Under the pieces are notes generated by a model. It did not search any database, was not told the origin of the DNA, and saw nothing but the letters and a program-made list of their open reading frames with translations. A stretch of DNA of 62,879 nt, taken from NCBI GenBank assembly GCA_041666845.1, contig JBAYGC010000008.1, positions 1 to 62,879 of the forward strand, written 5' to 3'. A program made the position numbers and the translations under genes. The number at the start of each line of letters is the position of its first letter. Position 1 is the first letter of the stretch. Positions 945 to 56,469 of the stretch are shown here, piece after piece. The DNA is from Patescibacteria group bacterium (GTDB lineage: Bacteria; Patescibacteriota; Patescibacteriia; UM-FILTER-42-10).

Positions 945-973
945 TTGACAAAATGCAGATTTAGGTATATACT
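945..973 (+). promoter_or_regulatory. Near-consensus promoter TTGACA-17-TATACT driving GC-rich cassette 1
   Basis: TTGACA is at 945-950, followed by a 17-nt spacer aaatgcagatttaggta and TATACT at 968-973. Confidence 0.6.
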
Positions 974-980
974 ACGCGGT

Positions 981-1235
981 TAACAATTGAATAGGTAGAG
1001 ACTCCTGCGTACCGCTCGCTTTGCGGCACTTCGGAGTCCGAGGGAGAGAGCTTTAGCAAAAATCGCCTTACGTTTGGATATTGCAACCTCAAATTATAGT
1101 ATGCAGACGTAAGGCCTTTTTCTTGGAATTACAACTCCAATCGCAAAAAAGAGAAAGCGCCTTTATTGTGAGAGAATGCGGTGGTCCTATTCCTGGATCG
1201 CCATTGACAACCGCCCCACTCGGGAGGAAAAGACG
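981..1235 (+). promoter_or_regulatory. Structured leader of about 255 nt with an internal terminator-like hairpin; candidate riboswitch, attenuator or sRNA
   Basis: A nested hairpin GACTCC..GTACCGC-TCGCTTT-GCGGCAC..GGAGTC lies at about 1001-1039. A 9-bp stem GCCTTACGT (1065-1073) pairs with ACGTAAGGC (1107-1115) and is followed by CTTTTTCTT. Confidence 0.35.
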
Positions 1236-2072
1236 ATGAAGTTCCGCACTCTGTTCATCCTGATGGCCGTCGTCCTGATGGCCAACATCGCGTTCGCTGC
1301 GACGGAGGTCACGCTGACCACGGCCCAGCAGGAGGAAGTCCTCAAGCTGCAGGCCGCCGGGCACCTCGCCCAGGCCGACAGCATGAAGACGGTCTTCACG
1401 GCCCAGGCCACGCTCGCTCTGCAGCAGGCCGCTGCCCGGGCCGAGCTCAGGAAGCTCGCGCTCAAGGCGAAGACCGACCGCGAGGCCGGATTCGCCAACG
1501 AGGTCGCGAAGCTCAGCTTCGAGGAATCGCTCAAGTGGGCCAACGACCCGAAGGGTGTTCGGGTGGAGCGCATCTCGTGGCTCAACGATCGTTGGGTCAA
1601 CCGGTTCGGCTTCACCGAGCCGGATTCCACCTCGTCACTGGACGAGGTGTATCTGCACCTGCAGCAGCAGGTTACCGAACGCCGCGACGCCGCCAAGCGC
1701 CGTGCCGAGATCGACGCCCGCGTCAGTGGCGCCGTCAATTCCCTGCAGAACAATCTGCAGAAGCAGATCGACGCCGGCGCCCGCGCTGACGTCCGGCTGG
1801 CCGAGTTCATCGGCAGGCAGGGCGACGAAATCGCCGAGTTGAAGGCTCAGGTCGCTGAGCTGAAGGAGTGGCAGCCCACCGTGGACTCCCGTCTGAGCAT
1901 CCTGCTCAACGAAGCCAACGCCGGCCGCGTGAACATCGCGGCCTGCATGAAGGCTCTCGAGTACGCGAAGTACAACCGCGAACCGAAAGCCGCAGATCAG
2001 GCGGCGAAGTTCGTGGCCAACGCCCAGGCCACCACCACGCCGGTGACGTTCCCCGCGAACGACACCGAGTAA
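1236..2072 (+). CDS. GC-rich orphan secreted Ala/Gln-rich coiled-coil protein (cassette 1)
   Basis: ATG at 1236 is preceded by GGGAGGAAAAGACG. The N-terminus MKFRTLFILMAVVLMANIAFA/ATE looks like a Sec signal with an AxA cleavage site. Codon third positions are GC-rich, with 43/60 GC at 1381-1440. The ORF-track start at 1176 is an upstream in-frame extension. I recognise no family. Confidence 0.65.
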   Translation: MKFRTLFILMAVVLMANIAFAATEVTLTTAQQEEVLKLQAAGHLAQADSMKTVFTAQATLALQQAAARAELRKLALKAKTDREAGFANEVAKLSFEESLKWANDPKGVRVERISWLNDRWVNRFGFTEPDSTSSLDEVYLHLQQQVTERRDAAKRRAEIDARVSGAVNSLQNNLQKQIDAGARADVRLAEFIGRQGDEIAELKAQVAELKEWQPTVDSRLSILLNEANAGRVNIAACMKALEYAKYNREPKAADQAAKFVANAQATTTPVTFPANDTE

Positions 2073-2091
2073 CTGCGAATCCGATTCGCAG
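2073..2091. repeat. GCGAAT..ATTCGC palindrome immediately after the cassette 1 stop codon
   Basis: CTGCGAATCCGATTCGCAG is a perfect 8-bp stem with a 3-nt loop. Confidence 0.6.
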
Positions 2092-2219
2092 AACCGTTCT
2101 TTCGTCGAGGATACCCTCGACCACCCCTCGTTCCCAAAAGGTTCCCATCTGTACCAAGCATTACGCCTTGGCAACTTACAGATGATCGGAGCCTTTTTTC
2201 TTTGCCAAAAAACAGCAGA

Positions 2220-2242
2220 CGCGAATATTTATTCGCGCCTAC
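2220..2242. repeat. REP-like palindrome with the 3' CCTAC flank
   Basis: CGCGAATATTTATTCGCGCCTAC shares the same core and 3' flank as the element at 403-434. Confidence 0.55.
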
Positions 2243-2268
2243 TCATTATTTTGGACTCTACCTTTTTA

Positions 2269-5200
2269 TTATGCTTTCAATTGTCCCAACCGTATATCAA
2301 TCACTTCAATAATCGCTTTATATCCTCTTGCAACAGACTCCAGATATTCAGGTGGCGCCTCTGCCGGTGGATTGTTTTGAATTCCCATAACAACTCCCTG
2401 TGCCCCTTCTTTCATATTTTCCAGAAGTGTTGTGTCATTCAAACTGGCAATATCATGCAGAGTGACACCTTCCAGACTTTTCAGGACATCGGGAGTAATA
2501 TTATCCATATTGGCCAGAATCCCGGTAAACAGGTTTTCTAATGCCGCCTTAATATCCATACCCGAGGCGGCAAATTGTCCATCGACAATCTCAGCTGGCT
2601 GCGGTGTTTGCTCAGTTGGTGACGCTTCAATAGGTTGAGTCTTTGGTACAGTATTTTCGGGTGTCACCGGAGGCACTTCAGTACTGTTAACAGCTGTTCC
2701 GGCATCTGGCGCTGGCGCGTTTACAGTGTCTTTAAGCACATCGCCAAATCTTGCTTCCAGTTGAGCAGTCGTGCTATGGATATGATCCTTTAAATACACT
2801 GCTTCGGGAGTATCCCCGTTTCCTGCCGCTTCCATCGTGCTTAATGAATGTTGCATTGCTTCCAATTGTCTCACGTTGTTTTCAAATACTACCTCATATG
2901 ATGCCATTGGAAGTTTTGTACCTTCTTCTGCATACTGCTGAGCAAGCATATCTCTGTATCCCTCATTCAGTGATGTAAGCGGGGACTTCATATCTTCAAT
3001 ATGCGGATGCACACCGATTATTTTTCCATCCGCTCCATAATCGAAACGGATTGCTGAACCATCGGGACTTTCAACGGCATGAATCGGTTCCACATTATCC
3101 GGAACTATTTTTGGAATTTCATTCTCCGCAGCAGCCAGTTCGGTCGGATTCAGATTCGGTGTTGCCAAAATTGCGGTTGTATTGTGCAGATCAAGATTCG
3201 CCTGTTCTGTAACCCTGCCCTCGATAATCTGCCGGACCGCTTCACCGATTTTTTGCGGGCCACCACTGGACGGATTAGTAATTTCTCCTTTTCTGATTGC
3301 GAGCTCAATTAGTTTTCGCAGTTTACCCCGATGACGTCCTTCCAGGTAATCCATTGTATTACCGGAATGGCCTTCAATATCTTTATTCAACAAATCTGCG
3401 ACTGATTTGTTCTTTAAAAATTCCCATTCCTGTTCACCCTGCCCGCCTTTGCCGAATCCTAATTTCTCAAGCATTTTTAGCTGGTCAGCCTTGGTCAGCT
3501 CCTGCACTCTTTGCAACCTCGCCGCTTCCGCCACAGCTTTTTCAGGATCTACCTCAGTTGTTTGCTCCGGCGTTGCTGGATTACTTACCACTTCTGGTTT
3601 ATTAGCTCCTTCGACATCACCGGAACCTCCGGTTACGCCGACACTAGAAGATTGAGCAGAACTTTTGGCATCATCCGAATCACCGAAGGAATCATCTTCC
3701 AACCTGTGTGCTTCAATCTTGCTGGCTTCTTCCATTAGTTTCGCGTGTGCGGCATCGCTGTTCATCGGCAATGGATCAAAATGTGTATCACCAATTCCGG
3801 TAATCATGCCGTGATCAATAGTTACCGTTTCACCGGCAAGATTGAAAGTTCCGGTATCCTGATCCGTCATGTGAATATCAGTGACATTCTCACCCAGACC
3901 GGTATGCGCGCCCGAATCATGCACCATCGCTTTGAATAAATGCCCTTCCGCCTGGTCAATCTGTGTGTGATCCAGGTGAACTTCGGCTCCTTCCGGTTTA
4001 GCCATGTCCGCCCATGTTTCATTCTTAATATCGTCCAAATAGGCCACCGCGCCGGTATTGCCGACATTTTCCGGAGTAATAATTTTTTCCGCATGCACAG
4101 TCAATTTATCCAAAACATCCCGATGAAACCCTTCGTAATCAGAAATTGTTATTTTACCGTCAACCACAGAAACATGGCGGGTAAAATCTTCCGCTGAGAC
4201 TCCCGCTACATTGTGTCCTTCGGAAAGGGCAGTCATATTGGCACCGACATTCAGAATTCTGGCACCCTCCACATTGGTAATTTCGTCACCGAGCTTCGCA
4301 TTTTCCATCGCTACTCTGTAGAATGCCTGCTCTAAATATTTTGGTGTGCCTTCTTTTCCTAAATCGAGTGTAAGTCCGACTTTGTCATGCGCAGTTTCAG
4401 CATGGAACCCGGCGTGATTCAGTGAAGCATGTTCCACTGGAAAACGCGCGGCCAGAACGGCATCATGGTTTACTAATCCCTTATCTTCCCAGGCAGCCAA
4501 AAGCTTGTCAGCATCGGCGCTTTTACTTCCGGCAAGTTCAGCAACAACTTTTTTCATTTCTTCCGGATTTACACCATCCTGCGAATTGATCCCGAGACTT
4601 GATTCTAAACTAGGCACCCTTGGTTCCGTTGCCAGTCCTGGAGTAGGTTGTTCCGTGCCAATCGGCGTGGTAACTTTCGGTTCAATATTTCCGCCATATT
4701 TGGGAATGCCAGTTTCAGTATTATTACCATGCACATCTAACTTTGACGCGTCAGGCAGACCAACTTTTATCGCATCTGGTGGAGTAGCTGTCGTCATTGT
4801 TTCGGCTGGATGTGCGCCAAATGTAGAAGTATAATCTTTCGGTTGTAGTACGCCGGAATGTTCTGTTTCTGGTTTAGTGATAAATGCCTTATCTTCCGGA
4901 GTGAGCACACCCTCCCCGCTAGTAGCGGTAACTCCGTGCGAAACCTGTGGTCCAGCTGTTCCTGCGGTATTAACATGATGCGCAACCGTCTCGTGCCCCA
5001 CTTCGGCAGCACCAGCTGTTGCGATACCTTTTGCTAAATCCTCATGTGGTACAGCGCCGGACGGGGAATAACCGCTATGCCCTTTATACAACCCCATGGT
5101 TGTACGACGCAGTGTTTCGTGCCAGTTTAATATCAATAAAAGTGCTCTGCCCGGATCACCGCCATGCGCCATTGATTCAATCGCTTTCTGAATTTCCTGA

Positions 5201-7599
5201 AATCTATCACCTGCATGTTCGATTGATTTACTGAAAGTCCCCGCTCCTTTTTCTGCAACTTCTGAAAAACCGGCTGCGGCAATCATTGCCGGCATTGCGG
5301 CTTTGGCCCAGGCACCAACTACACCTGCCGCTTTTTGCTTTCCTTTTAGCTCTTTCAATTTCCCCTGTCCGAACATTTCCAGCGCCATATCCCTAACGCC
5401 GTCTATAATCAGTTCTTTCGGAGTTACTCTTTCACCTTCTGTTTTCGTCGCTTTCAAATTCTTATATCTTTCACCCAGAGCAATAGCGCCTAGAGCACCC
5501 ATACGTACCGTAAAAGCGCCGGATACCACACTGATTCCGCCAACTGTTTCTTTGGCATAATCCATCCTCTTGGCCTTTTCACCGACATTCTGGTCAAGCT
5601 CACCGGTAATTTCCCCCAAGATTGTTCTTCTGAGACTTTCAAGTTTTTTTGTCCTTTTCACATCATGGTTCTCAATTTCCGTATCAATCTCACCCGTCAT
5701 CTCATTTTGGATTGCTGCCTCACCGGTAATCCATTTTTCCTCTAGCAATCCCAGTTTCTTTTCCAACGCTGTTCTTTTTTCCGGAGAGAGGTATTTAGAT
5801 TCCGCTATCTTACTTCTGATGGAATTGATTCTTTGCTGGATTCTGGTGTCTTCTGTCTCTGTTTCACCCAAATTTAATTCATTCAATCTGGTCTGGATTT
5901 TTGCTTTTTCCGCGGTATCTTTGGTTTTCTCCAGTCTTTTACGCAAATTACTTTCTTCAGTAACATCTTCCCTAATCCTGCGCACCTCGCCCATTCTGGC
6001 ATTTCTTTTTGCCCAGCGGTCCGCAAGACGTAAAGCTGTCTTAGCGCCGAAGAGATAAGAAACAAATTCCGCAGTTTTACCGGTTCCTAGCACAGCTTTC
6101 TCTATTACTCTTGCTTTGCTTTTTTCTTCCTGACTTACATACTCGCCTCGCCACATTCTGCCTAAGACAGATTTTCTTTCTTCCTGTTCTTTAGGAGGCT
6201 CTGTGTCCCCCTTCTTCCTTCTCCTGAGCCAACTCCACTTTCCCTTTGATTCTCCAACAGCATCATCCGCATCCTCTTCTGTAACATCCGGTGTCAAATC
6301 CGGAACACTCACATTCTCTTCTCCTAAGTTTTGTCTGATTAATGCCCCGAGTCTTGTTGAGTCGGCTTCAGTGAAAAAAGCACCGCCTTCCGGTTCATAA
6401 CCCTTCTGCAATAATGCCATTATTTCGGGATAGTTCGGGTTTTCTGTATCCAAATTTTTCAAAGATTCATGTTCCGCGAACACCATAACCGGACCATCAT
6501 CGGGATTTTCTTGTACAATTTTGGAATTAGCAATACGCATCTCCGAACCAAGCTGTTTGCTGGCAATCTGATCCTGAATTGTCACATCCGTCAATGGGTT
6601 ATCAGCCTTGCGTCTTTCATCCGAATTGTCATGTAGAAGCTTTGCATCTGCTAACTCCTCATATGTCCAAGACTCGCTCATTGCCAGCGGACTGGCAGTT
6701 AATCCCATCTGCTCCATTGCAGAATTAAACTTTTCTCTGATTTGAGTAACAATCGGTTCAAAATTTGGATCGTCTTTCATAGAATCCAAAGCATCAGCAT
6801 GCATATTTAACATTGCTACCTCTTCAGGAGAAATTCTAGAAATTTCCTCAGAACTTTTAGGAAAAGAATCAGAATACATCAGGAAACCCCTTGCGGTATC
6901 ACTTAATTTAACATTATTATTCTCAACATTTGTATCAGGAGTAGGAATAGCCCCAGCTGAAGAGTCCGCATCTGCAGGTGCTGGTACCGGGTTATCTTTC
7001 TTTCTTCGCAATAATCTGCTCCATCTGCTTCTTTTTGGATCATCACCGCCTGGCGGAGGAAGCTCTCCACTCATAGTCATCGTGCCGGCGCCGGGAATTG
7101 GACGTGGCGATTCCGGGGATTCGAAATAGCGCTCCCGATCCGTATGTTTTGGAAATCTATCATTAATCTCATTGTGCAGAATACCAATTCGCTCAACTGT
7201 TGCATCCCTGGCAAGCATAATCTTTTGGAGTGCTTGATCATTCATACGAGGATTGCGTGGCGCCTCCTGCATTAATAAATCGTACTTGCTTAAAAGCTGT
7301 CTGTATTCCGTATGTGTTCTCTGGAGTTGCGCAGTTTCCATTCTTTGCCAATCTCTACGAAGCAAATCAACAGCTTTTACACCTAGACCTGATAATTGAT
7401 CCAATTGCTGTGAGGGCATTTCACCTTTCTTAAAAAGCGCAAGACGATCATGATACTGCTTGCGATTCACGTCTGTGATTTTTTCATCTGCATCTAATGC
7501 ACCATCTAATTCTTCGAATGAGCGAGCATCTGAGATACTCAGGCGACGTCTATCATATTGCCTATGGTCATCTCTATTTCGAAATTGTGATTCTGGCAT
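2269..7599 (-). CDS. Orphan giant protein (about 1776 aa; 1807 aa if started at 7692), no recognisable domain
   Basis: One uninterrupted ORF. I see no signal peptide. It has long charged helical or coiled-coil stretches (KRLEKTKDTAEKAKIQTRLNEL), Gly/Ala-rich hydrophobic segments (GGISVVSGAFTVRMGALGAIALG, AAGVVGAWAKAAMPAMIAAAGF) and His/Thr/Gly-rich regions. The start at MPESQ (7599) avoids overlap with the upstream gene that ends at 7610. Confidence 0.8.
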   Translation of the reverse strand: MPESQFRNRDDHRQYDRRRLSISDARSFEELDGALDADEKITDVNRKQYHDRLALFKKGEMPSQQLDQLSGLGVKAVDLLRRDWQRMETAQLQRTHTEYRQLLSKYDLLMQEAPRNPRMNDQALQKIMLARDATVERIGILHNEINDRFPKHTDRERYFESPESPRPIPGAGTMTMSGELPPPGGDDPKRSRWSRLLRRKKDNPVPAPADADSSAGAIPTPDTNVENNNVKLSDTARGFLMYSDSFPKSSEEISRISPEEVAMLNMHADALDSMKDDPNFEPIVTQIREKFNSAMEQMGLTASPLAMSESWTYEELADAKLLHDNSDERRKADNPLTDVTIQDQIASKQLGSEMRIANSKIVQENPDDGPVMVFAEHESLKNLDTENPNYPEIMALLQKGYEPEGGAFFTEADSTRLGALIRQNLGEENVSVPDLTPDVTEEDADDAVGESKGKWSWLRRRKKGDTEPPKEQEERKSVLGRMWRGEYVSQEEKSKARVIEKAVLGTGKTAEFVSYLFGAKTALRLADRWAKRNARMGEVRRIREDVTEESNLRKRLEKTKDTAEKAKIQTRLNELNLGETETEDTRIQQRINSIRSKIAESKYLSPEKRTALEKKLGLLEEKWITGEAAIQNEMTGEIDTEIENHDVKRTKKLESLRRTILGEITGELDQNVGEKAKRMDYAKETVGGISVVSGAFTVRMGALGAIALGERYKNLKATKTEGERVTPKELIIDGVRDMALEMFGQGKLKELKGKQKAAGVVGAWAKAAMPAMIAAAGFSEVAEKGAGTFSKSIEHAGDRFQEIQKAIESMAHGGDPGRALLLILNWHETLRRTTMGLYKGHSGYSPSGAVPHEDLAKGIATAGAAEVGHETVAHHVNTAGTAGPQVSHGVTATSGEGVLTPEDKAFITKPETEHSGVLQPKDYTSTFGAHPAETMTTATPPDAIKVGLPDASKLDVHGNNTETGIPKYGGNIEPKVTTPIGTEQPTPGLATEPRVPSLESSLGINSQDGVNPEEMKKVVAELAGSKSADADKLLAAWEDKGLVNHDAVLAARFPVEHASLNHAGFHAETAHDKVGLTLDLGKEGTPKYLEQAFYRVAMENAKLGDEITNVEGARILNVGANMTALSEGHNVAGVSAEDFTRHVSVVDGKITISDYEGFHRDVLDKLTVHAEKIITPENVGNTGAVAYLDDIKNETWADMAKPEGAEVHLDHTQIDQAEGHLFKAMVHDSGAHTGLGENVTDIHMTDQDTGTFNLAGETVTIDHGMITGIGDTHFDPLPMNSDAAHAKLMEEASKIEAHRLEDDSFGDSDDAKSSAQSSSVGVTGGSGDVEGANKPEVVSNPATPEQTTEVDPEKAVAEAARLQRVQELTKADQLKMLEKLGFGKGGQGEQEWEFLKNKSVADLLNKDIEGHSGNTMDYLEGRHRGKLRKLIELAIRKGEITNPSSGGPQKIGEAVRQIIEGRVTEQANLDLHNTTAILATPNLNPTELAAAENEIPKIVPDNVEPIHAVESPDGSAIRFDYGADGKIIGVHPHIEDMKSPLTSLNEGYRDMLAQQYAEEGTKLPMASYEVVFENNVRQLEAMQHSLSTMEAAGNGDTPEAVYLKDHIHSTTAQLEARFGDVLKDTVNAPAPDAGTAVNSTEVPPVTPENTVPKTQPIEASPTEQTPQPAEIVDGQFAASGMDIKAALENLFTGILANMDNITPDVLKSLEGVTLHDIASLNDTTLLENMKEGAQGVVMGIQNNPPAEAPPEYLESVARGYKAIIEVIDIRLGQLKA

Positions 7600-7609
7600 T
7601 GTTTTTAAA

Positions 7610-7957
7610 TTAAATGTCTTGTATCTTTTTTTGAATTTGTTTGATCTGTTCCGCTCCTTCTTCTTCGATGATCTCATGCTCAAGTGCTTCAAACTCCTTT
7701 TCTGTCTGACCTTCCAATTCTGCTCTTTTTACATCATAACTTTGCTTCAAATCCATCAGAGCTGATTTTAGTTTTTCGGTATCTTCCTGACTACCTTTGG
7801 TAAATTTCTCAATTTGTAATAATATCTCTTCCAATTTATCGTCTTCAATGCGAACAATCATTTCAATCAGCAACAATCTTAAATCAGGATCAAGCGGTGC
7901 CCCCTTAATTAGTTCCGCGGCACGGACTAGTAATTTTGAATCGGGATTTGTCGGCAT
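7610..7957 (-). CDS. Small acidic helical protein, paralog of 7969-8295
   Basis: 115 aa. It shares LKQSYDVKRAEL / VKQKYDTKKDDL and EALEHEI / DLEKEI blocks with its neighbour and lies in the same operon as the giant ORF. Confidence 0.7.
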   Translation of the reverse strand: MPTNPDSKLLVRAAELIKGAPLDPDLRLLLIEMIVRIEDDKLEEILLQIEKFTKGSQEDTEKLKSALMDLKQSYDVKRAELEGQTEKEFEALEHEIIEEEGAEQIKQIQKKIQDI

Positions 7958-7968
7958 TATATGAATAG

Positions 7969-8295
7969 TTATTGATCAATTTCCTTCTCGAGATCATCTA
8001 AATCGCTCATTATCGAATTTGCCAGGTCATCTTTTTTGGTATCATATTTTTGCTTTACCATACCCAACTTTTCTTCAAGCACTTTATTCATTTCACCGCC
8101 CCGTGCTACATTGTCCGTTAAGACATCAACCAGTTCGTCTATCTGCTCCAATGTCATTTCCGGCAACAGCTGAATAATCGAAATCTGCACTTCTTCGGGC
8201 AGGTCGGATGATCTCAAGAGCAATACTAATTTTTTTCCTAATGCTCTCGCTTCTTCTTCGATACTTCCCTCTTTTTGCTGATTTGTATTGTTCAT
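7969..8295 (-). CDS. Small acidic helical protein, paralog of 7610-7957
   Basis: 108 aa, with DLPEEVQISIIQLLPEMTLEQIDELVDVL. It is the first gene of the three-gene minus-strand operon. Confidence 0.7.
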   Translation of the reverse strand: MNNTNQQKEGSIEEEARALGKKLVLLLRSSDLPEEVQISIIQLLPEMTLEQIDELVDVLTDNVARGGEMNKVLEEKLGMVKQKYDTKKDDLANSIMSDLDDLEKEIDQ

Positions 8296-18639: not shown

Positions 18640-18668
18640 TTGACCTAATATTAGCCAAGTGATATAAA
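18640..18668 (+). promoter_or_regulatory. Promoter TTGACC-17-TATAAA driving GC-rich cassette 2
   Basis: TTGACC is at 18640-18645, followed by a 17-nt spacer and TATAAA at 18663-18668. Confidence 0.55.
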
Positions 18669-18674
18669 GGAAGT

Positions 18675-18849
18675 GCCCAAATCTCGGGCATTTGCACCTA
18701 CCAAACAAGCTTCGGAAAGGGAAGTTTGTTACAACATCTTGACCAAAAAGGGAGGTCTTTCGTTTTACGTGTCCATTCACGTGTCGCACACCTCGTGTAT
18801 CAACTTCAGCCTGCGACGTCAGGGCTCGAACACGTACGGAGGCAACGAC
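18675..18849 (+). promoter_or_regulatory. Structured leader of about 175 nt for cassette 2
   Basis: Three hairpins: TGCCC-aaatctc-GGGCA (18674-18690), a 10-bp stem AACAAGCTTC-ggaaagg-GAAGTTTGTT (18704-18730) and ACGTG-tccatt-CACGT (18767-18782). Confidence 0.4.
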
Positions 18850-19350
18850 ATGAGACGACTACACTGGCCGCGGTTCGCGGTCTTCCTGATGGTCATCGCG
18901 ACCTTCGCGATCATGACGGCGGCGGCCAACGGCATTGCGAGCGCCACGGCCCCGCGCCCCATCGACGAGCTGAACAGCGCTTCGGTCATCTACAGGGCCT
19001 ACGCGCAGAGCGACGGTACGATCGTCAACACCGAGACGACGGCTGTCGACGTGGAGAACGCGGACGACGCCTACATCGACAACGGCGCGACCGCGATTCT
19101 GTGGTGGAGCCACGCGGCTATGCCGACGACCACGCTAAACCAGCGCGGCGCCAGCATTTCGACAATGGCGATGATCGGCGGAACCGACCAGTCCTCTTCA
19201 CCTACGGGGATGCGTGATTCCGTTGGCATTCATTTCACCGCCGTCACCAGTGACGGCATCGCTCGCTACAACGCGAAGAAGATGGCCCAGGTGGCCGAGA
19301 AGAAGATCGTCAAGACGACGAACACGAGCGACGGCGTGATCCGCGTGTAG
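18850..19350 (+). CDS. GC-rich orphan secreted or membrane-anchored protein (cassette 2)
   Basis: ATG at 18850 is preceded by GGAGGCAACGAC. The N-terminus MRRLHWPRFAVFLMVIATFAIMTAAANGIASA looks like a signal sequence. GC is 45/60 at 18901-18960. The ORF-track start at 18673 lies in the AT-rich leader. I recognise no family. Confidence 0.6.
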   Translation: MRRLHWPRFAVFLMVIATFAIMTAAANGIASATAPRPIDELNSASVIYRAYAQSDGTIVNTETTAVDVENADDAYIDNGATAILWWSHAAMPTTTLNQRGASISTMAMIGGTDQSSSPTGMRDSVGIHFTAVTSDGIARYNAKKMAQVAEKKIVKTTNTSDGVIRV

Positions 19351-19399
19351 ATCCGACCCTTCGTCGGACACGTTGAAGGGTTACACCTTCCTTTCGTGG

Positions 19400-19434
19400 C
19401 CCGTCCCAGACTGACATGGGACGGGTATTTTTTA
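19400..19434 (+). terminator. Rho-independent terminator of cassette 2
   Basis: CCCGTCCCA-gactgaca-TGGGACGGG followed by TATTTTTT. Confidence 0.85.
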
Positions 19435-19460
19435 TTTATTGAAACAAAAATATTCCTCAA

Positions 19461-19506
19461 GTAAAGCGAATTTATTCGCTTTTGGTTCGAATAAATTCGA
19501 ACCTAC
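19461..19506 (+). repeat. REP-like doublet (two palindromes ending in CCTAC)
   Basis: GTAAAGCGAATTTATTCGCTTTTGGTTCGAATAAATTCGAACCTAC. The last 25 nt or more are identical to the copy at 19926-19972. Confidence 0.75.
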
Positions 19507-19651: not shown

Positions 19652-20167
19652 TCAATCGATTTTATCAATCATCATTATTGAATTACCATCCTCGTAGTAA
19701 TTACGCCATGAGGAGTATTTCCAGTCCTCCGGATTTTTCACATACCCATGTTTGACCGGGTTGTTATGAATATAGTTTAGTTTTTCAACCAATTTTTTTT
19801 CAGAATAGATGTTGAAGTCATAAAAGCTTTTTTGCCAAACATTCCCTCTTCTTTTAAGATACCTGTCTATTTCTCTGGCGCTTACCCCTTTTATACGTTG
19901 AACAACATAAGATATATTACCACGGGTAGAGGCGAATTCATTCGCTTCCGGTTCGAATAAATTCGAACCTACCCAAAGTTTTAACAATAAATGTACATGA
20001 TTTGGAATAAATATATACCCAATCAAATGAAACTTTAATTCATATCTCAATCGATCGATAACATCCAGAAAAATCCTACAGCAAGTATCATCACTAAAAT
20101 ACGGGACACTGTTAATAGTCCTCGTCGTAACAAAATGCACTTGCCCGGGAATATTATAGCGCTTCAT
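19652..20167 (-). CDS. REP-associated tyrosine transposase (RAYT; IS200/IS605 TnpA-like Y1 HUH enzyme)
   Basis: 171 aa with the HUH motif PNHVHLLL and a catalytic Tyr context LNYIHNNPVKHGY. Length and order fit COG1943/RayT. About 15-16 extra residues (WVGSNLFEPEANEFAS) are encoded by a REP doublet. The start overlaps the upstream gene stop by 4 nt. Confidence 0.8.
   Translation of the reverse strand: MKRYNIPGQVHFVTTRTINSVPYFSDDTCCRIFLDVIDRLRYELKFHLIGYIFIPNHVHLLLKLWVGSNLFEPEANEFASTRGNISYVVQRIKGVSAREIDRYLKRRGNVWQKSFYDFNIYSEKKLVEKLNYIHNNPVKHGYVKNPEDWKYSSWRNYYEDGNSIMMIDKID
19926..19972 (+). repeat. REP-like doublet lying in-frame inside the RAYT gene
   Basis: GTAGAGGCGAATTCATTCGCTTCCGGTTCGAATAAATTCGAACCTAC is in the same orientation as 19461-19506 and nearly identical to it. 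Confidence 0.75.
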
Positions 20168-34934: not shown

Positions 34935-37900
34935 TTAACTTGGTGGTGACCAATTAGTAATCCAAAAGTTATCCGTGGCTTCAGCTGAATAGTTGAAACA
35001 AGGGCAGTTTGAGCCGGTGTACCCCATACAGGCATCCAAGCCAAAGAACCGGCCAGGCCATGCTGAAGTGTTAAATCCTCCAGTTCCGACATATTCCAAA
35101 TTCGTGAACAAATACGCGTTTGTTGATTCCTTAAGATATGCGTATGTGTGAGAACCGGTCGGACAATTAAACGTATGCGCGGTATCGTTCCAGCAAGTGC
35201 CTGCCGGATCATAAGGCGGAACCGCACAATTGACAGTAGGATTATTGAATTCATTAATTGGATCAAGTGGCGGATTCATTCCGATTGCGTTACCGAATTC
35301 CGCCATCCATGACGGCCATTTGCTGGAAGTTAACCCCGGCAGGAAAGTGCCCGCGGCAAGCTCCGGAAAATCACCATTGTTAAATTGGTAATTCAACAGG
35401 AGATATCCGATTTCACCTAAATCGGTTACCCGTTTCGTATCCCGGACTATACACTCCTTGTTTGTATCGCCAGGCGCAAGAGCACATACATTCATGAGGC
35501 TTGCGGGAGCAGAGTTGAAAAACCAATTTTCAACCATTTGATTGTAAATATTTACTGTTTGTCCGTTCGCACTGTCATTATAAGAAACCAGATAAATATT
35601 CGGCCAAAGCGTAGTACCCGCGAGATTAGTCGCGGCTACATAAATAGTCCTGCCCGCCCGACAGGCCTGATAGCCATCCACTGCATTAATTGGAACACAC
35701 GAACCGGTATCCTCGGGAAACATCTGATTGAACCATGCTGAAGGCGAGAGGAAGCTTTGATTTTCCATTACCCTGATTCCTATTACATCACCAGATGTAT
35801 TTGCGCTAGTGCAGGAAGCAACGTCTGAATCACATGTTGAGAAGAAAACTTCCCTCAATAATTCATCAACACCATTAATGGTCGGCGTATGATTGACATT
35901 GATTATTGGATTAGCCATGCCAGGTAGTCCTCCGTCACGACAATAGTATGTAGTAAAATTTTGCGGCTCAATAACCGATACCCCGGCCGGATACATATAG
36001 TTCGGATTATTGGGCCATGGATTATCACATGACTCCACTCTGGCGTTCACAATCGCCGATCCAGAACCCGCAGCACCTAAGTCCACATCTGCTCTGATTT
36101 GCTCAGTGCCATCCAGACCCAATGTGCCCACGTGAGTAAACCGATTATTTGGAGATTCCACATTTAACACACCATTTGTGCTTGAACCGCTCCAGTCATA
36201 TGTAGCACCTGTAAGTAAATAATTTCCTGACGCATCCACAGCAGATGCAATATATCGGTGCTGATTGCCGTTAATTACACTCGTCATATCGTCAGCACAA
36301 TCATTTCTTTTACAAGTATACATATCCTGAGATGCATTGTATGTCGTAGTTGGTCCAGGCATATACTGAATATCAACTTTAACGTGATCAATATTACATA
36401 ACGTATCTCCGGCTGTAAAATGAGATACATAGTCACTAGACATGCCAATAAAATATTGATTAGCTGCCCGAGCATTAATTGTTATTGTAAATGAATGGCT
36501 GGCTGGCCACGGTAAATCCGGTGAGAATTGAAAGATGGTGTGATCATCGCTAAAATAGCTGGTTAATGTCCCATCAATTAATAAAGAAGTGGAGTCGTCA
36601 GTAACTGTAAATACCCCTAAATCAGTAACAGAACCTTCGTCCATAATCTGATCAAACTCAACCACGATACCCCGATTCATACAGACATCAGTTTCGCCGT
36701 CGTACGGGTTTATACTAACCACATTTGGTCTGCTGGAACAGCACATTGTTCCCCCACCCATATCACCACAACCGATATTGGCAGGGTCGCCACACTGAGC
36801 ATCTGTAGTACAACCACAATAGAGACCCCGATCATTCGCACCGCCCAAGCAATCTCCCTGATTTACCATACAGGTTAGACCGTTATATGTATCTCCTGGC
36901 CGGCAGCAAAAACGGCAATCGTCACCTGCTATTGCATCCATCGGTAATTCACCGGTATTACTGATGCACTCATAACCGGATGGTGGGTATATCGGACCAA
37001 GTGAACAATTAGGATGAGAAGATATTTGGCACAGGTCGCCCGGTAAGCCACCACTGCACATAGCGGAGTCCGAACATTGTCCGGCATAACAACATCCGGT
37101 TGAACATTCGGTATTATCGGCACAAGTGACATAAAAATTTACCGGATTACTACCATTGACCGTTACGCCATTTGAGCCGATGCTAGAGACAGCATTTGAA
37201 GGAATATCTATGCCCTCAACCAAAGTATCACTCCAATCAGTTAATATTCCAGACCAAGTTGACCGACCACCTGCATCATTTAAAAAACTAACGTTGCCGG
37301 AAGTACCAAATCCTTCCCCCACTGCCGCGGTCGCATCTGTTTCCCCCTGTTTTCCGTCAGACGGGTCAAGATAACAAAGATTTGGAGTCGAGGGACCACC
37401 TATGGTAAAACCGCTAAGGGTAGTCGTATTGCCATACTGGTTTGTAAGACGAATTGGTCCGCTAATAGCGTCATCACTCGTGTCAGCTGTATCTTCATTC
37501 GGTACTTCCACTACTACAGAATCATCTGTCCAAGTTGATCCGGCTGGTCCGCAAATTGCCGGGAAGATAGCATTAACCCACGGTGTCCCGGTAAATTCAA
37601 CATTTGCCGAACCAGTATAAGTGCCAAACATACATCCCGCAATTGTCACAAAATTACCTACCGGAGCACTAATAGGATTGATACTCTGAATAACTGGCGA
37701 ACAATGTGGTGTCGGGCTAAGCATACAAACACTACCCGGGCAGCTTGAACAATCTGCATCGTCCTGACAAAAGGTACGATCAACAGTAAGCTGACGTGCT
37801 GCCGGTGGAATTGAAGTGCCAGCAGCAGAACTATTAACTGTGACAGTTCCATCGACACCAGTAGCTAAATATGTGTAATTTGCCTGATTTGTTTGAGGAC

Positions 37901-43405: not shown

Positions 43406-44044
43406 TTAAATGTTGTAATCAGGTAAATTAAAATGTGTCAGCTTGTTAAAAGGCCACGCTCTGACCCACGCCTTGCCCACAATATATTCCTTTCCTATGG
43501 GGCCAATAATCCTGGAATCAAGACTGGATCCCCGATTATCACCCATCACGTAAAATTTATCGGCAGCAAGCGTTATATCAATATTACCGCTAGTATAAAC
43601 AGATTCATCTAGATAACTACTTTCATCCAAGATCGCACCTTCCGGATTTGCCGAATTAGTAATCATGACTGTTCCGTTTTTTATTTTTATAGTTTCCCCT
43701 GGCAGCCCGATTATTCTTTTGATAAAAAATTGGGAAGTGTTTCTGGGATCTTTCAGAACAATGATATCACCCCGGTCCGGAGTATTTAGACGATAAGTAA
43801 TCTCATTAATTATCAAATATTCATAATCATGAAAAGTCGGCTCCATGGAAGCGCCTTTAACATAAAACGGCTGGATCAGATAATACCGTATCGGAATAAT
43901 GATCGCGAGTGAAATGATAATTATTTTCGCAACCTCTAAAACAAAAAGTCCCGTTGCTTTCCAAAACGGATCCGGTGTGATGCTCTTTTTATTCAGTTCA
44001 TTCAAAGCATCATTAATTTCCTTTTCCTCAGTCTTTTTTGGCAT
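43406..44044 (-). CDS. lepB: Signal peptidase I
   Basis: 212 aa with a TM anchor, GASMEPTF and GDNRGSSLDSR. Confidence 0.92.
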   Translation of the reverse strand: MPKKTEEKEINDALNELNKKSITPDPFWKATGLFVLEVAKIIIISLAIIIPIRYYLIQPFYVKGASMEPTFHDYEYLIINEITYRLNTPDRGDIIVLKDPRNTSQFFIKRIIGLPGETIKIKNGTVMITNSANPEGAILDESSYLDESVYTSGNIDITLAADKFYVMGDNRGSSLDSRIIGPIGKEYIVGKAWVRAWPFNKLTHFNLPDYNI

Positions 44045-44189
44045 TTATTTTAATTTAATTTGCGAAATTTAATCTTACTAATTATTATACCTCTCTTTGA
44101 ATTGAGTGATCGCAGACCACGAGCGAATCACGCAAAGCGTGATGAGTCGAGTGGCAGGCTCAACTGGACTCGCCTGCCTACTAAGGTAC

Positions 44190-44266
44190 TGGTGCTCGTG
44201 TCTGGATTTGAACCAGAGACCTTTCGAATGTGAATCGAACGCTCTAACCAACTGAGCTACACGAGC
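44190..44266 (-). tRNA. tRNA-Val (CAC), CCA encoded
   Basis: Minus strand: GCTCGTG TA GCTC AGTTGGTTA GAGC G TTCGA TTCACAT TCGAA AGGTC TCTGG TTCAAAT CCAGA CACGAGC A CCA. Confidence 0.9.
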
Positions 44267-44390
44267 GTGGCGGACAGATTTGTGGATAGTGCCCCCTGCC
44301 TGTCCACTCGCCATCGCTTGCGCTTTAGACATAAACAGGCGAGAGCTACAAACCCCTGTAAATACGGGCAATAGCACGCAAAGTAGTCCT

Positions 44391-44419
44391 ATTGTAACAT
44401 AAATAAAGTAGTATTTCAA
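44391..44419 (-). promoter_or_regulatory. Promoter TTGAAA-17-TACAAT upstream of tRNA-Val
   Basis: The minus strand reads cTTGAAAtactactttatttatgtTACAATagg, implying a structured leader of about 105 nt before the tRNA. Confidence 0.5.
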
Positions 44420-44539
44420 GCCCCGCTAATGTAATAATAAATTATGAGAAAACGTATTAAACAATGTAGTAGATTTTTTGATTGAAATATTATATAATAT
44501 GGGAGATATGTAATTAGCATTGATGTATTAATTTTCACG

Positions 44540-55742: not shown

Positions 55743-55746
55743 AAAT

Positions 55747-56469
55747 ATGAGTGATAATAACACAAGCGTCCAACTTGAAGAAACTTGTGACAGATGCGGA
55801 AAACCAATGACTTTAAGATCCGGCAGATACGGGGAGTTCCTGGCATGTACGGGGTATCCTGACTGTAAGAATACCATCAATGTAGTCCGGGAAGGGGTGA
55901 AGCAGGAAATGCATGAAGACCGACTGCTCGGTAATGACCCGGAAACAAACAAACCGGTGTACCTGAAGGAAGGACGCTATGGAACATATATTCAACTGGG
56001 AGATCTGGAAAAAGGCAGAAAACCGAAGACCGCTTCTTTGCTTCGAGGAATGAATGCAAAGACTTTAAATCTTGAAACGGCACTGCAACTTTTAACCTTA
56101 CCGAAAACACTGGGTACAACTGATGAGGGGGAAATAATTACGGTATCCAATGGAAAATTCGGACCTTATATTAAAGCAGGAAAAGAGACCCGCAGTCTCC
56201 CCTCAAATTTGTCGCCACTAAAGATTACTCTGGATGAAGCGAGAGATTTATTGAAGGGTGATAAGTTACGACCAGGTGGAACATCGCCGGTGATTAATCT
56301 GGGCACTGATGAAGAGCATAATGATATAATAATCAAAGAAGGGAAATTCGGACCGTATATTACAAACGGCAAAATAAATGTTTCCGTTCCTAAAACTGTC
56401 ACATCTGAATCTGTCACTTTAGAAGATGCTATAGCTATGCTGGAAAAGAAGGCTAAAAAGATCAAATAA
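55747..56469 (+). CDS. Stand-alone topoisomerase I C-terminal module (one Zn ribbon plus three Topo C-terminal repeats)
   Basis: 240 aa with CDRCGKPMTLRSGRYGEFLACTGYPDC, then GRYGTYIQLG, GKFGPYIKAG and GKFGPYITNG. It starts 4 nt after the topA stop, in another frame. Confidence 0.8.
   Translation: MSDNNTSVQLEETCDRCGKPMTLRSGRYGEFLACTGYPDCKNTINVVREGVKQEMHEDRLLGNDPETNKPVYLKEGRYGTYIQLGDLEKGRKPKTASLLRGMNAKTLNLETALQLLTLPKTLGTTDEGEIITVSNGKFGPYIKAGKETRSLPSNLSPLKITLDEARDLLKGDKLRPGGTSPVINLGTDEEHNDIIIKEGKFGPYITNGKINVSVPKTVTSESVTLEDAIAMLEKKAKKIK

What the first reader, a model, noticed from the sequence alone, without database searches (positions are those of the whole stretch)
945..2242. Cassette 1: a GC-rich secreted coiled-coil protein behind a 255-nt leader, followed by two GCGAAT/ATTCGC palindromes
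The ORF at 1236-2072 encodes MKFRTLFILMAVVLMANIAFA/ATEV..., a Sec-type signal followed by about 255 aa of Ala/Gln/Glu/Arg-rich heptad-like sequence (LQQQVTERRDAAKRRAEIDARV, EIAELKAQVAELKEW). Its third-position GC is very high, unlike every neighbouring gene. The high GC opens spurious ORFs in almost all other frames.

The stop codon is followed directly by CTGCGAATCCGATTCGCAG (2073-2091). About 130 nt later comes CGCGAATATTTATTCGCGCCTAC (2220-2242). Both share the core of the REP family found next to the RAYT gene.
Basis: partly seen in the sequence, partly recalled or inferred. Interest (0 to 1): 0.7.

Follow-up and report, generated by a model that had tools for sequence, protein, structure and literature searches.

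The report
Conserved GC-rich gene for exported helical protein
A small gene for an exported, rod-like helical protein in an uncultured low-GC bacterium has stayed strikingly GC-rich, with an unusually tightly folded messenger RNA, in every known relative, so the odd composition looks selected rather than a sign of foreign DNA or an assembly error.

Summary
ORF 1236-2072 has GC3 0.885. The 42 other genes in the window average 0.41 ± 0.04. It follows a near-consensus promoter and a roughly 255-nt leader, and two REP palindromes lie downstream.

The "cassette / foreign DNA / misassembly" reading fails. Orthologs sit at the same position (rplT, VanZ, this gene, then a convergent giant gene) in at least four other Patescibacteria genomes. 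A profile search found 16 family members. All 11 members that have a neighbouring gene for comparison exceed it in GC3 by 0.20-0.60, although neighbours' synonymous sites are saturated.

Ordinary translational selection does not explain this, because infC, rpmI and rplT show no such bias. The coding RNA folds more stably than synonymous-codon shuffles: mean z is -3.95 in 12 members against -0.28 in 28 control genes (p about 1e-6).

The leader contains a terminator-like hairpin whose 23-nt arm and loop are nearly invariant, even where the proteins are only 24% identical.

The protein has a Sec-type signal peptide and very long predicted helices, and it matches no known family or fold.

Best reading: a vertically inherited, strongly expressed envelope-protein gene whose transcript is under RNA-level selection for GC content and structure. 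The REPs are incidental insertions.

The parts
945..973 (+). Sigma-70-type promoter, TTGACA-17-TATACT
   Evidence: Matches 11 of 12 consensus positions. The -35 element and most of the -10 region are invariant in six orthologous loci. Distant family members also carry TTGACA-17-TAnnnT promoters with an upstream TG.
979..1235 (+). Predicted 5' untranslated leader, about 255 nt
   Evidence: The start is inferred from the position of the -10 element. The leader folds with z = -3.5 against dinucleotide shuffles. It matches no Rfam family.
979..995 (+). Highly conserved block at the 5' end of the leader, GTTAACAATTGAATAGG
   Evidence: Identical in W, L005, L001 and L007. L015 differs at three positions, and L022 keeps only part of it.
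1000..1038 (+). Optional GC-rich hairpin (GACTCC...GGAGTC)
   Evidence: Present in the window and in L015, with a differently sequenced inner stem. Absent from L005, L001 and L007, so it is probably ancestral and was lost in those lineages.
1040..1050 (+). Shine-Dalgarno-like polypurine tract (GAGGGAGAGAG), about 190 nt upstream of the start codon
   Evidence: GAGGAGAG-type tract kept in five of six loci; degenerate in L007, GAGAAAAA. The comparison with STAB-SD-type stabilisers (PMC4113751) is an inference.
1065..1124 (+). Terminator-like or attenuator-like hairpin (arms 1065-1076 and 1104-1115, inner stem, about 19-nt loop) followed by TTTTTCTT
   Evidence: 96% of cells are paired across six sequences, against 32-45% for slid controls. 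There are wobble changes only and no double compensatory changes. The 5' arm plus loop, ACGTTTGGATAkTGCAACCTCAA, is nearly invariant even in L022, whose protein is only 24% identical.
1203..1227 (+). Invariant ATTGACAA motif (1203-1210) and Shine-Dalgarno sequence GGGAGG (1222-1227)
   Evidence: ATTGACAA is present 27-33 nt before the ATG of the first GC-rich ORF in five orthologs; in L001 that ORF is the upstream paralog at 5568, not the family gene. No -10 element follows it, so it is not a second promoter (read directly from the sequence).
1236..2072 (+). GC-rich ORF of 278 aa. Signal peptide at codons 1-21 (1236-1298), then an all-helical mature protein.
   Evidence: Supported. GC3 is 0.885. 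The coding RNA is more stable than synonymous-codon shuffles, z = -4.6.
2073..2091 (.). REP-type palindrome directly after the stop codon
   Evidence: Found. Present in the window and, imperfectly, in L001. Cleanly absent from L005 and L007. It is therefore an insertion polymorphism.
2104..2121 (+). Short 3' UTR hairpin, GTCGAGG-ATAC-CCTCGAC
   Evidence: Read directly from the sequence. Partly conserved in L005 and L001.
2140..2199 (+). Long terminator hairpin (GGTTCCCATCTGTA...TACAGATGATCGGAGCC) followed by a TTTTTT run
   Evidence: Read directly from the sequence. Conserved in W, L005 and L001, while L007 has a different hairpin plus T-run at the same place. Distant members also end in strong hairpin/T-run terminators.
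2214..2243 (-). Second REP palindrome, placed to act as the terminator of the convergent giant gene (2269-7692, minus strand)
   Evidence: The scan calls it terminator-like on the minus strand, with 13 pairs followed by GTTTTTTG. A REP is present here in W, L005 and L007, and a different hairpin replaces it in L001.

Best explanation
This is a vertically inherited gene specific to Patescibacteria (CPR), not a foreign cassette.

**How it most likely works**
1. It is transcribed from a near-consensus sigma-70 promoter.
2. Transcription passes through a long structured leader. The leader carries an upstream Shine-Dalgarno-like polypurine tract and a deeply conserved hairpin followed by a U-tract. 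That hairpin probably acts as an attenuator, or releases a short leader RNA.
3. The gene encodes a Sec-exported protein of about 26 kDa. The protein is elongated and all-helical, and it probably forms a fibrous component of the cell envelope. It is always encoded tail-to-tail with a giant protein gene.

**The GC-richness**
- The high GC content and the tight folding of the coding RNA are conserved properties of the transcript and appear to be selected.
- The most likely benefit is a compact, nuclease-resistant, long-lived mRNA for an abundant protein in a slow-growing cell.
- It is not left over from horizontal transfer, and it is not ordinary translational codon selection.

**The palindromes**
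- Both are copies of the genome's REP family that landed in the spacer between the convergent genes.
- One of them now serves as the terminator of the giant gene.

**Shown versus inferred**
- Shown: the anatomy, the synteny, the family-wide GC3 excess, the lack of codon bias in translation genes, the excess RNA folding, and the conservation of the leader.
- Inferred: high expression, mRNA stability as the selected trait, attenuation at the leader hairpin, and an envelope location.
For: **Synteny and composition**
- Synteny and an equally high GC3 (0.79-0.91) hold in four genomes.
- Neighbours' synonymous sites are saturated (pS 0.72-0.9). The gene's protein diverges 3-4 times faster than its neighbours (64% identity versus 83-99% between W and L005), yet GC3 is retained.
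- A simple decay model predicts GC3 of 0.47-0.58 if the gene were ameliorating.
- All 11 family members with a neighbouring gene exceed it in GC3 by 0.20-0.60, in genomes of 32-48% GC; a twelfth, L024, has GC3 0.78 but no neighbour on its 969-nt contig.

**Not ordinary codon selection**
- infC, rpmI and rplT show no comparable bias. Their C fraction in two-fold pyrimidine codons is 0.28-0.43 and their G fraction in two-fold purine codons is 0.34-0.37. The family gene shows 0.85-0.90 and 0.64-0.88.
- rplT prefers AAA and GAA, whereas this ORF uses AAG 16:1 and GAG 16:6.

**RNA structure**
- Native coding sequences fold more stably than synonymous-codon shuffles. The 12 family z-scores run from -1.1 to -9.0, with a mean of -3.95.
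- The 28 control genes average -0.28 +/- 0.99, with a minimum of -2.3. Mann-Whitney p is about 1e-6.
- The extra stability is spread along the ORF.
- The only other outlier is the RAYT gene, which contains real REP hairpins. It serves as a positive control.

**Signals of strong expression**
- Near-consensus promoters (some with an upstream TG), mostly strong Shine-Dalgarno sequences and, where the 3' flank was read, strong terminators in the family members with upstream sequence; L024 has too little flank to judge.

**Leader and protein**
- The leader hairpin is conserved across six loci.
- The protein has a signal peptide, long helices and only coiled-coil-like PDB hits.
- Signal peptidase I, Lgt and three DsbA-like genes are present in the window.

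**Known analogies**
- STAB-SD and 5' stabilisers (PMC4113751).
- Control of hbs mRNA stability (PMC5737220).
Against: - There are no expression, half-life or proteome data. High abundance and mRNA stability are inferences.
- Three close orthologs show no covariation support for one shared coding-region structure (covariation term +13). Selection would therefore have to act on overall foldedness rather than on one architecture.
- Two members (L007 z = -1.1, L020 z = -1.8) and the second GC-rich gene in the window (z = -0.5 and -1.95) lack a clear folding excess. GC-richness and extra structure are therefore not strictly linked.
- A hairpin plus U-tract inside the leader would be expected to stop transcription. 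That sits awkwardly with constitutive high expression.
- In E. coli, heavy structure across an ORF goes with low translation efficiency (my own knowledge, not checked here).
- The codon-shuffle null also destroys any regional clustering of GC-rich codons, which could inflate z.
- The family members are phylogenetically related, so they are not fully independent samples.
Confidence: 0.5

Rival explanations
1. The composition comes from ordinary translational selection. The gene would be the most highly expressed in the cell, and C- and G-ending codons would be translationally optimal.
For: - Near-consensus promoters and mostly strong Shine-Dalgarno sequences across the family.
- In the most AT-rich member, L017, only C-ending pyrimidine codons are enriched. 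That is the classical signature of this kind of selection.
- The effective number of codons (Nc) is 3-11 units below the value expected from GC3 alone.
- rplT in the window shows a mild preference for C-ending codons.
Against: - infC, rpmI and rplT in L001 and L007 are essentially unbiased compared with housekeeping genes.
- rplT prefers AAA and GAA, whereas the family gene prefers AAG, GAG and CAG.
- Both C- and G-ending codons are used in every four-fold family, as in high-GC genomes.
- GC1 and the amino-acid composition are also shifted: Ala is 17.6% against 7.2% in the background.
- This model does not predict extra RNA folding beyond codon content.
Confidence: 0.2
2. The gene is a hotspot of recombination or biased gene conversion (or another local GC-biased mutation process). 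The hotspot would be linked to diversifying selection on a surface protein, in the way antigenic-variation loci behave.
For: - The protein evolves 3-4 times faster than its neighbours.
- GC is also raised at first codon positions and in the 40-80 nt flanking the ORF in the window's clade.
- The genome encodes the competence proteins ComEC and DprA.
- L001 carries a partial tandem paralog that could act as a conversion partner.
Against: - The boundaries are sharp and coincide with the transcription unit in every lineage. The adjacent giant gene also evolves fast, yet its GC3 sits at the low end of the range (0.15-0.39).
- In L017, C3 rises (0.27 versus 0.08) but G3 does not (0.16 versus 0.14). 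A strand-symmetric conversion bias does not predict that.
- No silent donor copies were found. There is one protein cluster per genome in 5.8 billion proteins, and no repeat of the gene in the window.
- This model does not explain the folding excess over synonymous shuffles.
Confidence: 0.15
3. The gene was acquired horizontally from a high-GC donor such as a host actinobacterium and has not finished ameliorating, or the GC-rich stretch is a chimeric misassembly.
For: The composition and codon usage look like those of a high-GC genome. Two such genes lie within 63 kb, and REP elements are nearby.
Against: - The gene occupies the same position, with the same anomaly, in independent assemblies from JGI, NCBI, ENA and Logan. 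These include contigs of 1.18 Mb and 335 kb.
- Neighbours' synonymous sites are saturated, so amelioration should be far advanced by now.
- The GC3 excess holds across the whole family, down to about 20% protein identity.
- The promoter and leader are native in composition and conserved.
- No homolog was found outside this context in two very large protein searches.
Confidence: 0.03
4. The transcript has a second, non-coding role. The leader hairpin would release a small regulatory RNA, or the folded mRNA itself would act as a structural or exported RNA. The GC-richness would serve that role.
For: - The promoter, a conserved 23-nt single-stranded loop containing an anti-Shine-Dalgarno-like CCUC, and a hairpin plus U-tract together look like a free-standing small RNA gene.
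- The leader is conserved far better than the protein.
- The coding RNA folds more stably than expected.
Against: - There is no Rfam match.
- No convincing target complementary to the loop exists in the window.
- The Dus-linked half of the family lacks this leader but keeps the GC3 excess and the folding excess.
- There is no covariation in the coding-region structure.
Confidence: 0.12

Closest known systems
Long-lived mRNAs of very abundant bacterial proteins (ompA 5' UTR, S-layer gene leaders, B. thuringiensis cry3A with STAB-SD, B. subtilis hbs)
   Same: A strong promoter. A long structured 5' UTR with a Shine-Dalgarno-like sequence far upstream of the start codon. A strong true Shine-Dalgarno sequence and robust 3' hairpins. 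In most of these cases the product is exported or structural (PMC4113751; PMC5737220).
   Different: In those systems the stabilising elements lie in the UTRs. Here the whole coding region is compositionally shifted (GC3 raised by 0.2-0.6) and over-folded. The leader also carries a terminator-like hairpin. Stability itself has not been measured.
REP elements with their RAYT (IS200/IS605-like Y1) transposase
   Same: Short imperfect palindromes with a fixed core (GCGAAT...ATTCGC). They are over-represented (5 found against 0.03 expected), lie mostly in intergenic 3' spacers, and flank a Y1_Tnp gene.
   Different: They are unrelated to the gene's composition or function. Their presence at this locus varies among orthologs.
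Horizontally acquired genomic islets and integron-type cassettes
   Same: A sharp compositional discontinuity that covers a single gene with its own promoter and terminator.
   Different: The gene is syntenic and vertically inherited, and the anomaly is conserved over saturated divergence. No donor homologs, integrase or attC-type sites were seen.
Fibrous coiled-coil envelope and surface proteins (Braun lipoprotein, streptococcal M-like proteins, phage P22 tail needle gp26)
   Same: An N-terminal export signal and very long helices. The family profile hits gp26, reovirus sigma-1 and haemagglutinin HA2 coiled coils.
   Different: There is no lipobox, no LPXTG motif and no detectable homology. 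Foldseek finds no match (best E = 2.6-3.2). The heptad signal is weak. The oligomeric state is unknown.
GC-rich antigenic-variation loci in AT-rich genomes (for example Borrelia vls; from my own knowledge)
   Same: A locally GC-rich, fast-evolving gene for an exported protein inside a low-GC genome.
   Different: There are no silent cassettes, no strong GC skew (about -0.04 to 0), and a single copy per genome.

Membership tests
REP/RAYT repeat system | Short palindromes with a shared core, present in many more copies than chance allows | tested here: met
   GCGAAT-N(1-8)-ATTCGC occurs 5 times against 0.03 expected. The looser core occurs 7 times against 1.26 expected.
REP/RAYT repeat system | A Y1 (IS200-like) transposase gene flanked by the same palindromes | tested here: met
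   ORF 19652-20167(-) matches PF01797 at 1.7e-7. REP doublets lie at 19466-19499, just outside it, and at 19933-19965, inside it.
Sec-dependent signal peptide (signal peptidase I type) | A positively charged n-region, a hydrophobic h-region of 10-15 residues, and an A-x-A cleavage motif with no lipobox cysteine | tested here: met
   The sequence is MKFR + TLFILMAVVLMANI + AFA/AT, with a Kyte-Doolittle maximum of 3.14. An equivalent N-terminus is present in 14 of the 16 aligned family members; the other two look N-terminally truncated. An S26 signal peptidase is encoded at 43406-44044. No dedicated predictor was available.
Coiled-coil protein | Heptad periodicity of hydrophobic residues over long helices | tested here: inconclusive
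   AlphaFold2 predicts helices of 47 and 95 residues, and the family profile hits only coiled coils in the PDB. The heptad score is only about 2 SD above shuffles, and just one 28-residue window is strong.
Horizontally transferred island | Absent from the same locus in related genomes | tested here: not met
   Present between VanZ and the giant gene in L001, L005, L007 and L022, and next to a giant gene in L015, L017, L019, L020 and L023.
Horizontally transferred island | Homologs in organisms whose genome matches the island's composition | tested here: not met
   The 12 homologs traced to DNA are all GC3-rich, and the 11 with flanking DNA lie in low-GC Patescibacteria-type contexts.
Translationally selected, highly expressed gene | The same direction of codon preference as ribosomal-protein and translation-factor genes of the same genome | tested here: not met
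   infC, rpmI and rplT are nearly unbiased and prefer AAA and GAA. The family gene prefers AAG, GAG and CAG and all C-ending codons.
Intrinsic terminator or attenuator in a leader | A stable GC-containing stem directly followed by a U-tract, conserved among orthologs | tested here: met
   The stem is 12 + 6 bp and 96% paired across six sequences. It is followed by TTTTTCTT, GTTTTCTT or GTTTCTTTTT. Whether it terminates transcription cannot be tested here.
Known riboswitch, T-box or small-RNA family | A match to a curated covariance model | tested here: not met
   There are no Rfam hits at gathering thresholds, and only noise at E <= 5 in 900-2300.
Known protein family or fold | A significant match in Pfam, NCBIfam, PHROGs, PDB sequences or PDB folds | tested here: not met
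   Searches give no family. Foldseek's best E-values are 2.6 and 3.2. PDB sequence hits are compositional coiled-coil matches.

The most novel reading that the evidence does not exclude
The GC-richness and over-folding would be a new, gene-specific kind of RNA-level adaptation in CPR bacteria. The transcript is built to persist, or to act as an RNA, either inside or even outside the cell. The deeply conserved leader hairpin would be a previously undescribed regulatory RNA element or small RNA that controls it. If so, this family is a natural case of strong selection on synonymous GC content and mRNA structure that is independent of translation.
Probability: 0.3. Interest if true: 0.8.

Novelty: new variant of a known kind. 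Interest (0 to 1): 0.62.

Why it matters
Whether GC content at synonymous sites is directly selected in bacteria, separately from codon-tRNA matching, is a long-running question. This family offers an unusually clean natural test. One gene keeps a GC3 excess of 0.2-0.6 over its neighbours, plus excess RNA folding, through divergence that has saturated its neighbours' synonymous sites. It does so in genomes where even ribosomal genes carry no codon bias. The idea can be tested with metatranscriptomes and polymorphism data from the same samples.

The work also has three practical results:
- It defines a new family of exported helical proteins that is always paired with a giant protein. These are likely envelope or host-contact components of uncultured Patescibacteria.
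- It identifies a conserved leader RNA element with no Rfam family.
- It shows that compositional "islands" in genomes assembled from metagenomes should not automatically be read as horizontal transfer or misassembly.

Tried and rejected
1. **Misassembly or recent transfer.** Rejected on synteny in independent assemblies.
2. **Overlapping or antisense gene as the cause of high GC.** Alternative-frame ORFs vary in frame and length among 8 members, which fits a compositional artefact.
3. **5'/3' UTR pairing ("panhandle").** MFE folds suggested it. Duplex energies are no better than with shuffled 3' UTRs, z = -1.2 to +0.5, so there is no support.
4. **A single conserved structure in the coding region.** RNAalifold on three orthologs gives a positive (penalising) covariation term.
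5. **Leader motif elsewhere.** It occurs once in the window. Exact-pattern scans of the genome and metagenome collections returned only the L005 contig. A search for a target of the loop in the window gave chance-level hits.
6. **Known RNA families.** None matched.
7. **Fold and family searches for the protein.** None matched.
8. **Homology of the adjacent giant proteins between distant loci.** BLASTP does not detect it; the best hit is E = 0.05 at the extreme C-termini. The conserved pairing is therefore positional only.
9. **Second promoter at ATTGACAA (1203-1210).** No -10 element follows it.
10. **Leader peptide inside the hairpin.** The short TTG-initiated frame is not conserved in L007.
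11. **Literature.** Searches found no earlier description of GC-rich genes in CPR genomes.
Full report
**1. What is in the sequence**

The window is an ordinary chromosome segment of a Patescibacteria (CPR) bacterium with 42.6% GC. It carries rplT, ftsZ, ftsA, mfd, dprA, topA, comEC, relA, hisS, signal peptidase I, lgt and three DsbA-like genes.

ORF 1236-2072 (+) encodes 278 aa. Its GC1/2/3 values are 0.65/0.42/0.885. The 42 other long ORFs have GC3 0.411 ± 0.038, with a maximum of 0.516. Codon choice is inverted relative to the genome. The ORF uses AAG:AAA at 16:1, whereas AAA makes up 70% of lysine codons in the background. It also uses CAG:CAA at 18:0 and TTC:TTT at 11:0.

The only strong promoter match in 400-2400 is TTGACA-17-TATACT at 945-973, which gives a leader of about 255 nt. 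The two palindromes are at the stated coordinates. They belong to a REP family with 5 copies against 0.03 expected. Two copies lie at an IS200-like RAYT gene at 19652-20167, one just downstream of it and one inside its ORF.

**2. It is neither foreign nor misassembled**

A search of 5.8 billion proteins found three other clusters, at 62%, 61% and 44% identity. All are encoded at the same position: rplT, then VanZ on the opposite strand, then this gene, then a convergent gene of 1,600-1,900 codons. They come from independent JGI, NCBI, ENA and Logan assemblies, including contigs of 1.18 Mb and 335 kb. In each genome the gene has GC3 of 0.79-0.91, against 0.29-0.52 for its neighbours.

Between these genomes the neighbours' synonymous sites are saturated or nearly so (pS 0.72-0.9). 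The gene's protein changes 3-4 times faster than its neighbours. For W versus L005, identity is 64% for this protein, against 99%, 88% and 83% for the three neighbours. A two-state decay model predicts that an ancestral GC3 of 0.90 would have fallen to 0.47-0.58. It has not.

**3. The anomaly is a property of the whole family**

A profile search of 1.84 billion representative proteins found 16 members. They share an N-terminal signal, the motif LxLQAAGKxAEADSLK, and a C-terminal VNxNGVNIAAC(L/M)xxLxYAKYN.

I retrieved DNA for 12 members. In all nine loci with enough 3' flank, the gene lies tail-to-tail with a giant ORF (in L022 two small minus-strand ORFs lie between). The upstream gene is VanZ in one branch and Dus in the other. 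In all 11 members that have a neighbouring gene, GC3 exceeds that of the neighbour by 0.20-0.60, with a mean of 0.45. The host genomes range from 32% to 48% GC. This effectively excludes transfer from a high-GC donor.

**4. What maintains it**

*Translational selection.* This is the obvious candidate, and the family does carry near-consensus promoters (some with an upstream TG), mostly strong Shine-Dalgarno sequences and, where the 3' flank was read, strong terminators. In the most AT-rich member only C-ending codons are enriched.

However, infC, rpmI and rplT in the same genomes are essentially unbiased:

| Measure | infC + rpmI + rplT | Family gene |
|---|---|---|
| C fraction, two-fold pyrimidine codons | 0.28-0.43 | 0.85-0.90 |
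| G fraction, two-fold purine codons | 0.34-0.37 | 0.64-0.88 |

In addition, rplT prefers AAA and GAA. Both C- and G-ending codons are used in all four-fold families. GC1 and the amino-acid composition are shifted too, with Ala at 17.6% against 7.2% in the background. The force therefore acts largely on nucleotide content rather than on specific codons.

*RNA folding.* I compared the folding energy of each native coding sequence with versions in which synonymous codons were permuted among sites of the same amino acid. The results are below.

| Set | n | z-scores |
|---|---|---|
| Family genes | 12 | -4.6, -5.1, -4.1, -1.1, -3.6, -5.0, -9.0, -1.8, -2.7, -2.3, -3.3, -4.8 (mean -3.95) |
| Control genes from the same loci | 28 | mean -0.28 ± 0.99, minimum -2.3 |

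Mann-Whitney p is about 1e-6. The only other outlier, at -4.9, is the RAYT gene, which contains a real REP hairpin doublet. It acts as a positive control.

The excess is spread along the ORF as many local hairpins. It is not one conserved architecture. One hairpin, at the conserved WLNxRWV motif (1578-1599), does show a compensatory change.

The arrangement of synonymous codons, and not only their composition, is therefore biased toward a compact RNA. I infer selection on the transcript itself. The most plausible benefit is resistance to AU-directed ribonucleases and a long functional lifetime. This remains an inference.

**5. The leader**

Six loci (W, L005, L001, L007, L015 and L022) share the following elements, in order:
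- the promoter;
- a 5' block, GTTAACAATTGAATAGG, identical in four of the loci, changed at three positions in L015, and only partly retained in L022;
- a Shine-Dalgarno-like polypurine tract (GAGGAGAG);
- a hairpin of 12 + 6 bp followed by a U-tract.

The hairpin is 96% paired across the six sequences, against 32-45% for slid controls. It shows wobble changes but no double compensatory changes. Its 5' arm and loop, ACGUUUGGAUAkUGCAACCUCAA, are almost invariant even in L022, whose protein is only 24% identical to the window's. That argues for recognition by sequence. The loop contains an anti-Shine-Dalgarno-like CCUC.

A 39-nt GC-rich hairpin (1000-1038) is present in W and L015 but not in the other three close orthologs. 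No Rfam family matches any of this.

The element looks like an intrinsic terminator or attenuator, or like the 3' end of a leader-derived small RNA. The tools here cannot decide which. The Dus-linked branch of the family lacks this leader but keeps the compositional and folding anomalies. The leader is therefore an added regulatory layer, not the cause of the anomaly.

**6. The 3' end and the REPs**

The stop codon is followed by REP-1 (2073-2091), a short hairpin (2104-2121), a long terminator hairpin with a T-run (2140-2199), and REP-2 (2214-2243).

REP-1 is present only in W and, imperfectly, in L001. REP-2 is present in W, L005 and L007. The scan scores REP-2 as a terminator on the minus strand for the giant gene. 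The REPs are mobile insertions into a convergent-gene spacer and are not part of the gene unit.

**7. The protein**

It has a Sec-type signal with an A-x-A cleavage site. With a 16-sequence alignment, AlphaFold2 gives pLDDT 80 and helices at 29-40, 44-90, 95-102, 109-124, 135-229, 234-246 and 250-265. Foldseek finds no related fold. A family profile matches only coiled-coil chains in the PDB, such as P22 gp26, sigma-1 and HA2. No Pfam, NCBIfam or PHROG family matches.

One cysteine, in the conserved C-terminal motif, is retained in 8 of the 16 aligned members. DsbA-like genes are nearby.

I read the protein as an elongated envelope or surface protein that works with the adjacent giant protein. 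That pairing is positional only, because BLASTP does not detect homology between the giant proteins of distant loci.

**8. Verdict**

The "cassette" interpretation is replaced by a conserved, selected compositional and structural signature on the mRNA of a new CPR protein family, together with a conserved leader RNA element.

The components resemble known stable-mRNA arrangements (PMC4113751, PMC5737220). A GC and folding signature that covers the whole coding region, persists across the family, and occurs in genomes without translational codon bias is unusual.

The main uncertainties are the lack of expression data and the unknown function of the leader hairpin.

Noticed in passing
window 18640-19435: A second GC-rich gene with the same layout. 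It has promoter TTGACC-17-TATAAA, a leader of about 190 nt with an upstream Shine-Dalgarno-like AAAGGGAGG, ORF 18850-19350 (166 aa with an N-terminal signal or TM segment, GC3 0.86), and a terminator at about 19397-19435. Its ortholog P0006 is syntenic in L013 and equally GC-rich (GC3 0.86). It shows no folding excess (z = -0.5 and -1.95) and matches no known family.
   Followed up: partly
window 19926-19975, inside ORF 19652-20167(-): A REP doublet (GCGAATTCATTCGC + GGTTCGAATAAATTCGAACC) lies inside the reading frame of the RAYT gene, between the HUH motif and the rest of the Y1 domain. It gives that gene a codon-shuffle folding z of -4.9. The 171-aa length is the same in L013.
   Followed up: partly
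window 51940-52330: A GC-rich (0.56) intergenic stretch of about 400 nt between mfd and dprA, with several hairpins. It has no Rfam match above noise (best E = 0.14). It may be an undescribed structured RNA.
   Followed up: partly
window 47944-48015 (-): ARAGORN calls a tRNA-Pro with anticodon AGG. An A at position 34 is unusual for bacterial tRNA-Pro. It sits next to tRNA-Lys(CTT) and tRNA-Lys(TTT).
   Followed up: no
window about 44100-44500: Gene orientation switches here: mostly minus strand to the left and plus strand to the right. The cumulative GC skew reaches its minimum around 44-46 kb, which suggests a replication origin. If so, both GC-rich genes, and also rplT, are transcribed head-on to replication.
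   Followed up: no
L001 5568-5927: In one ortholog a GC-rich (GC3 0.75) partial paralog of 119 aa sits in tandem upstream of the main gene. It has the signal peptide and the N-terminal motif, then a C-terminal transmembrane segment. It is listed as P0015.
   Followed up: partly
window 7610-8295 (-) and 2269-7692 (-): Two small acidic ORFs of 108 and 115 aa precede the 1,807-aa giant ORF. The 115-aa ORF overlaps the listed TTG start of the giant ORF, so the true start is probably further downstream. Equivalent small ORFs precede the giant gene in L001, L007 and L020, where one is DUF5663. None of the window's copies has a family match.
   Followed up: partly
window 34935-40739 (-): A second giant protein of 1,934 aa, with an N-terminal T4SS-pilin domain and three Big_5 Ig-like domains. 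It is likely a surface appendage protein.
   Followed up: no
window 53544-56469 (+): Topoisomerase I appears split into two adjacent ORFs. The 732-aa ORF holds the Toprim, core and zinc-ribbon domains. The 240-aa ORF holds a zinc ribbon and the C-terminal repeats. This is either a true split or a frameshift.
   Followed up: no
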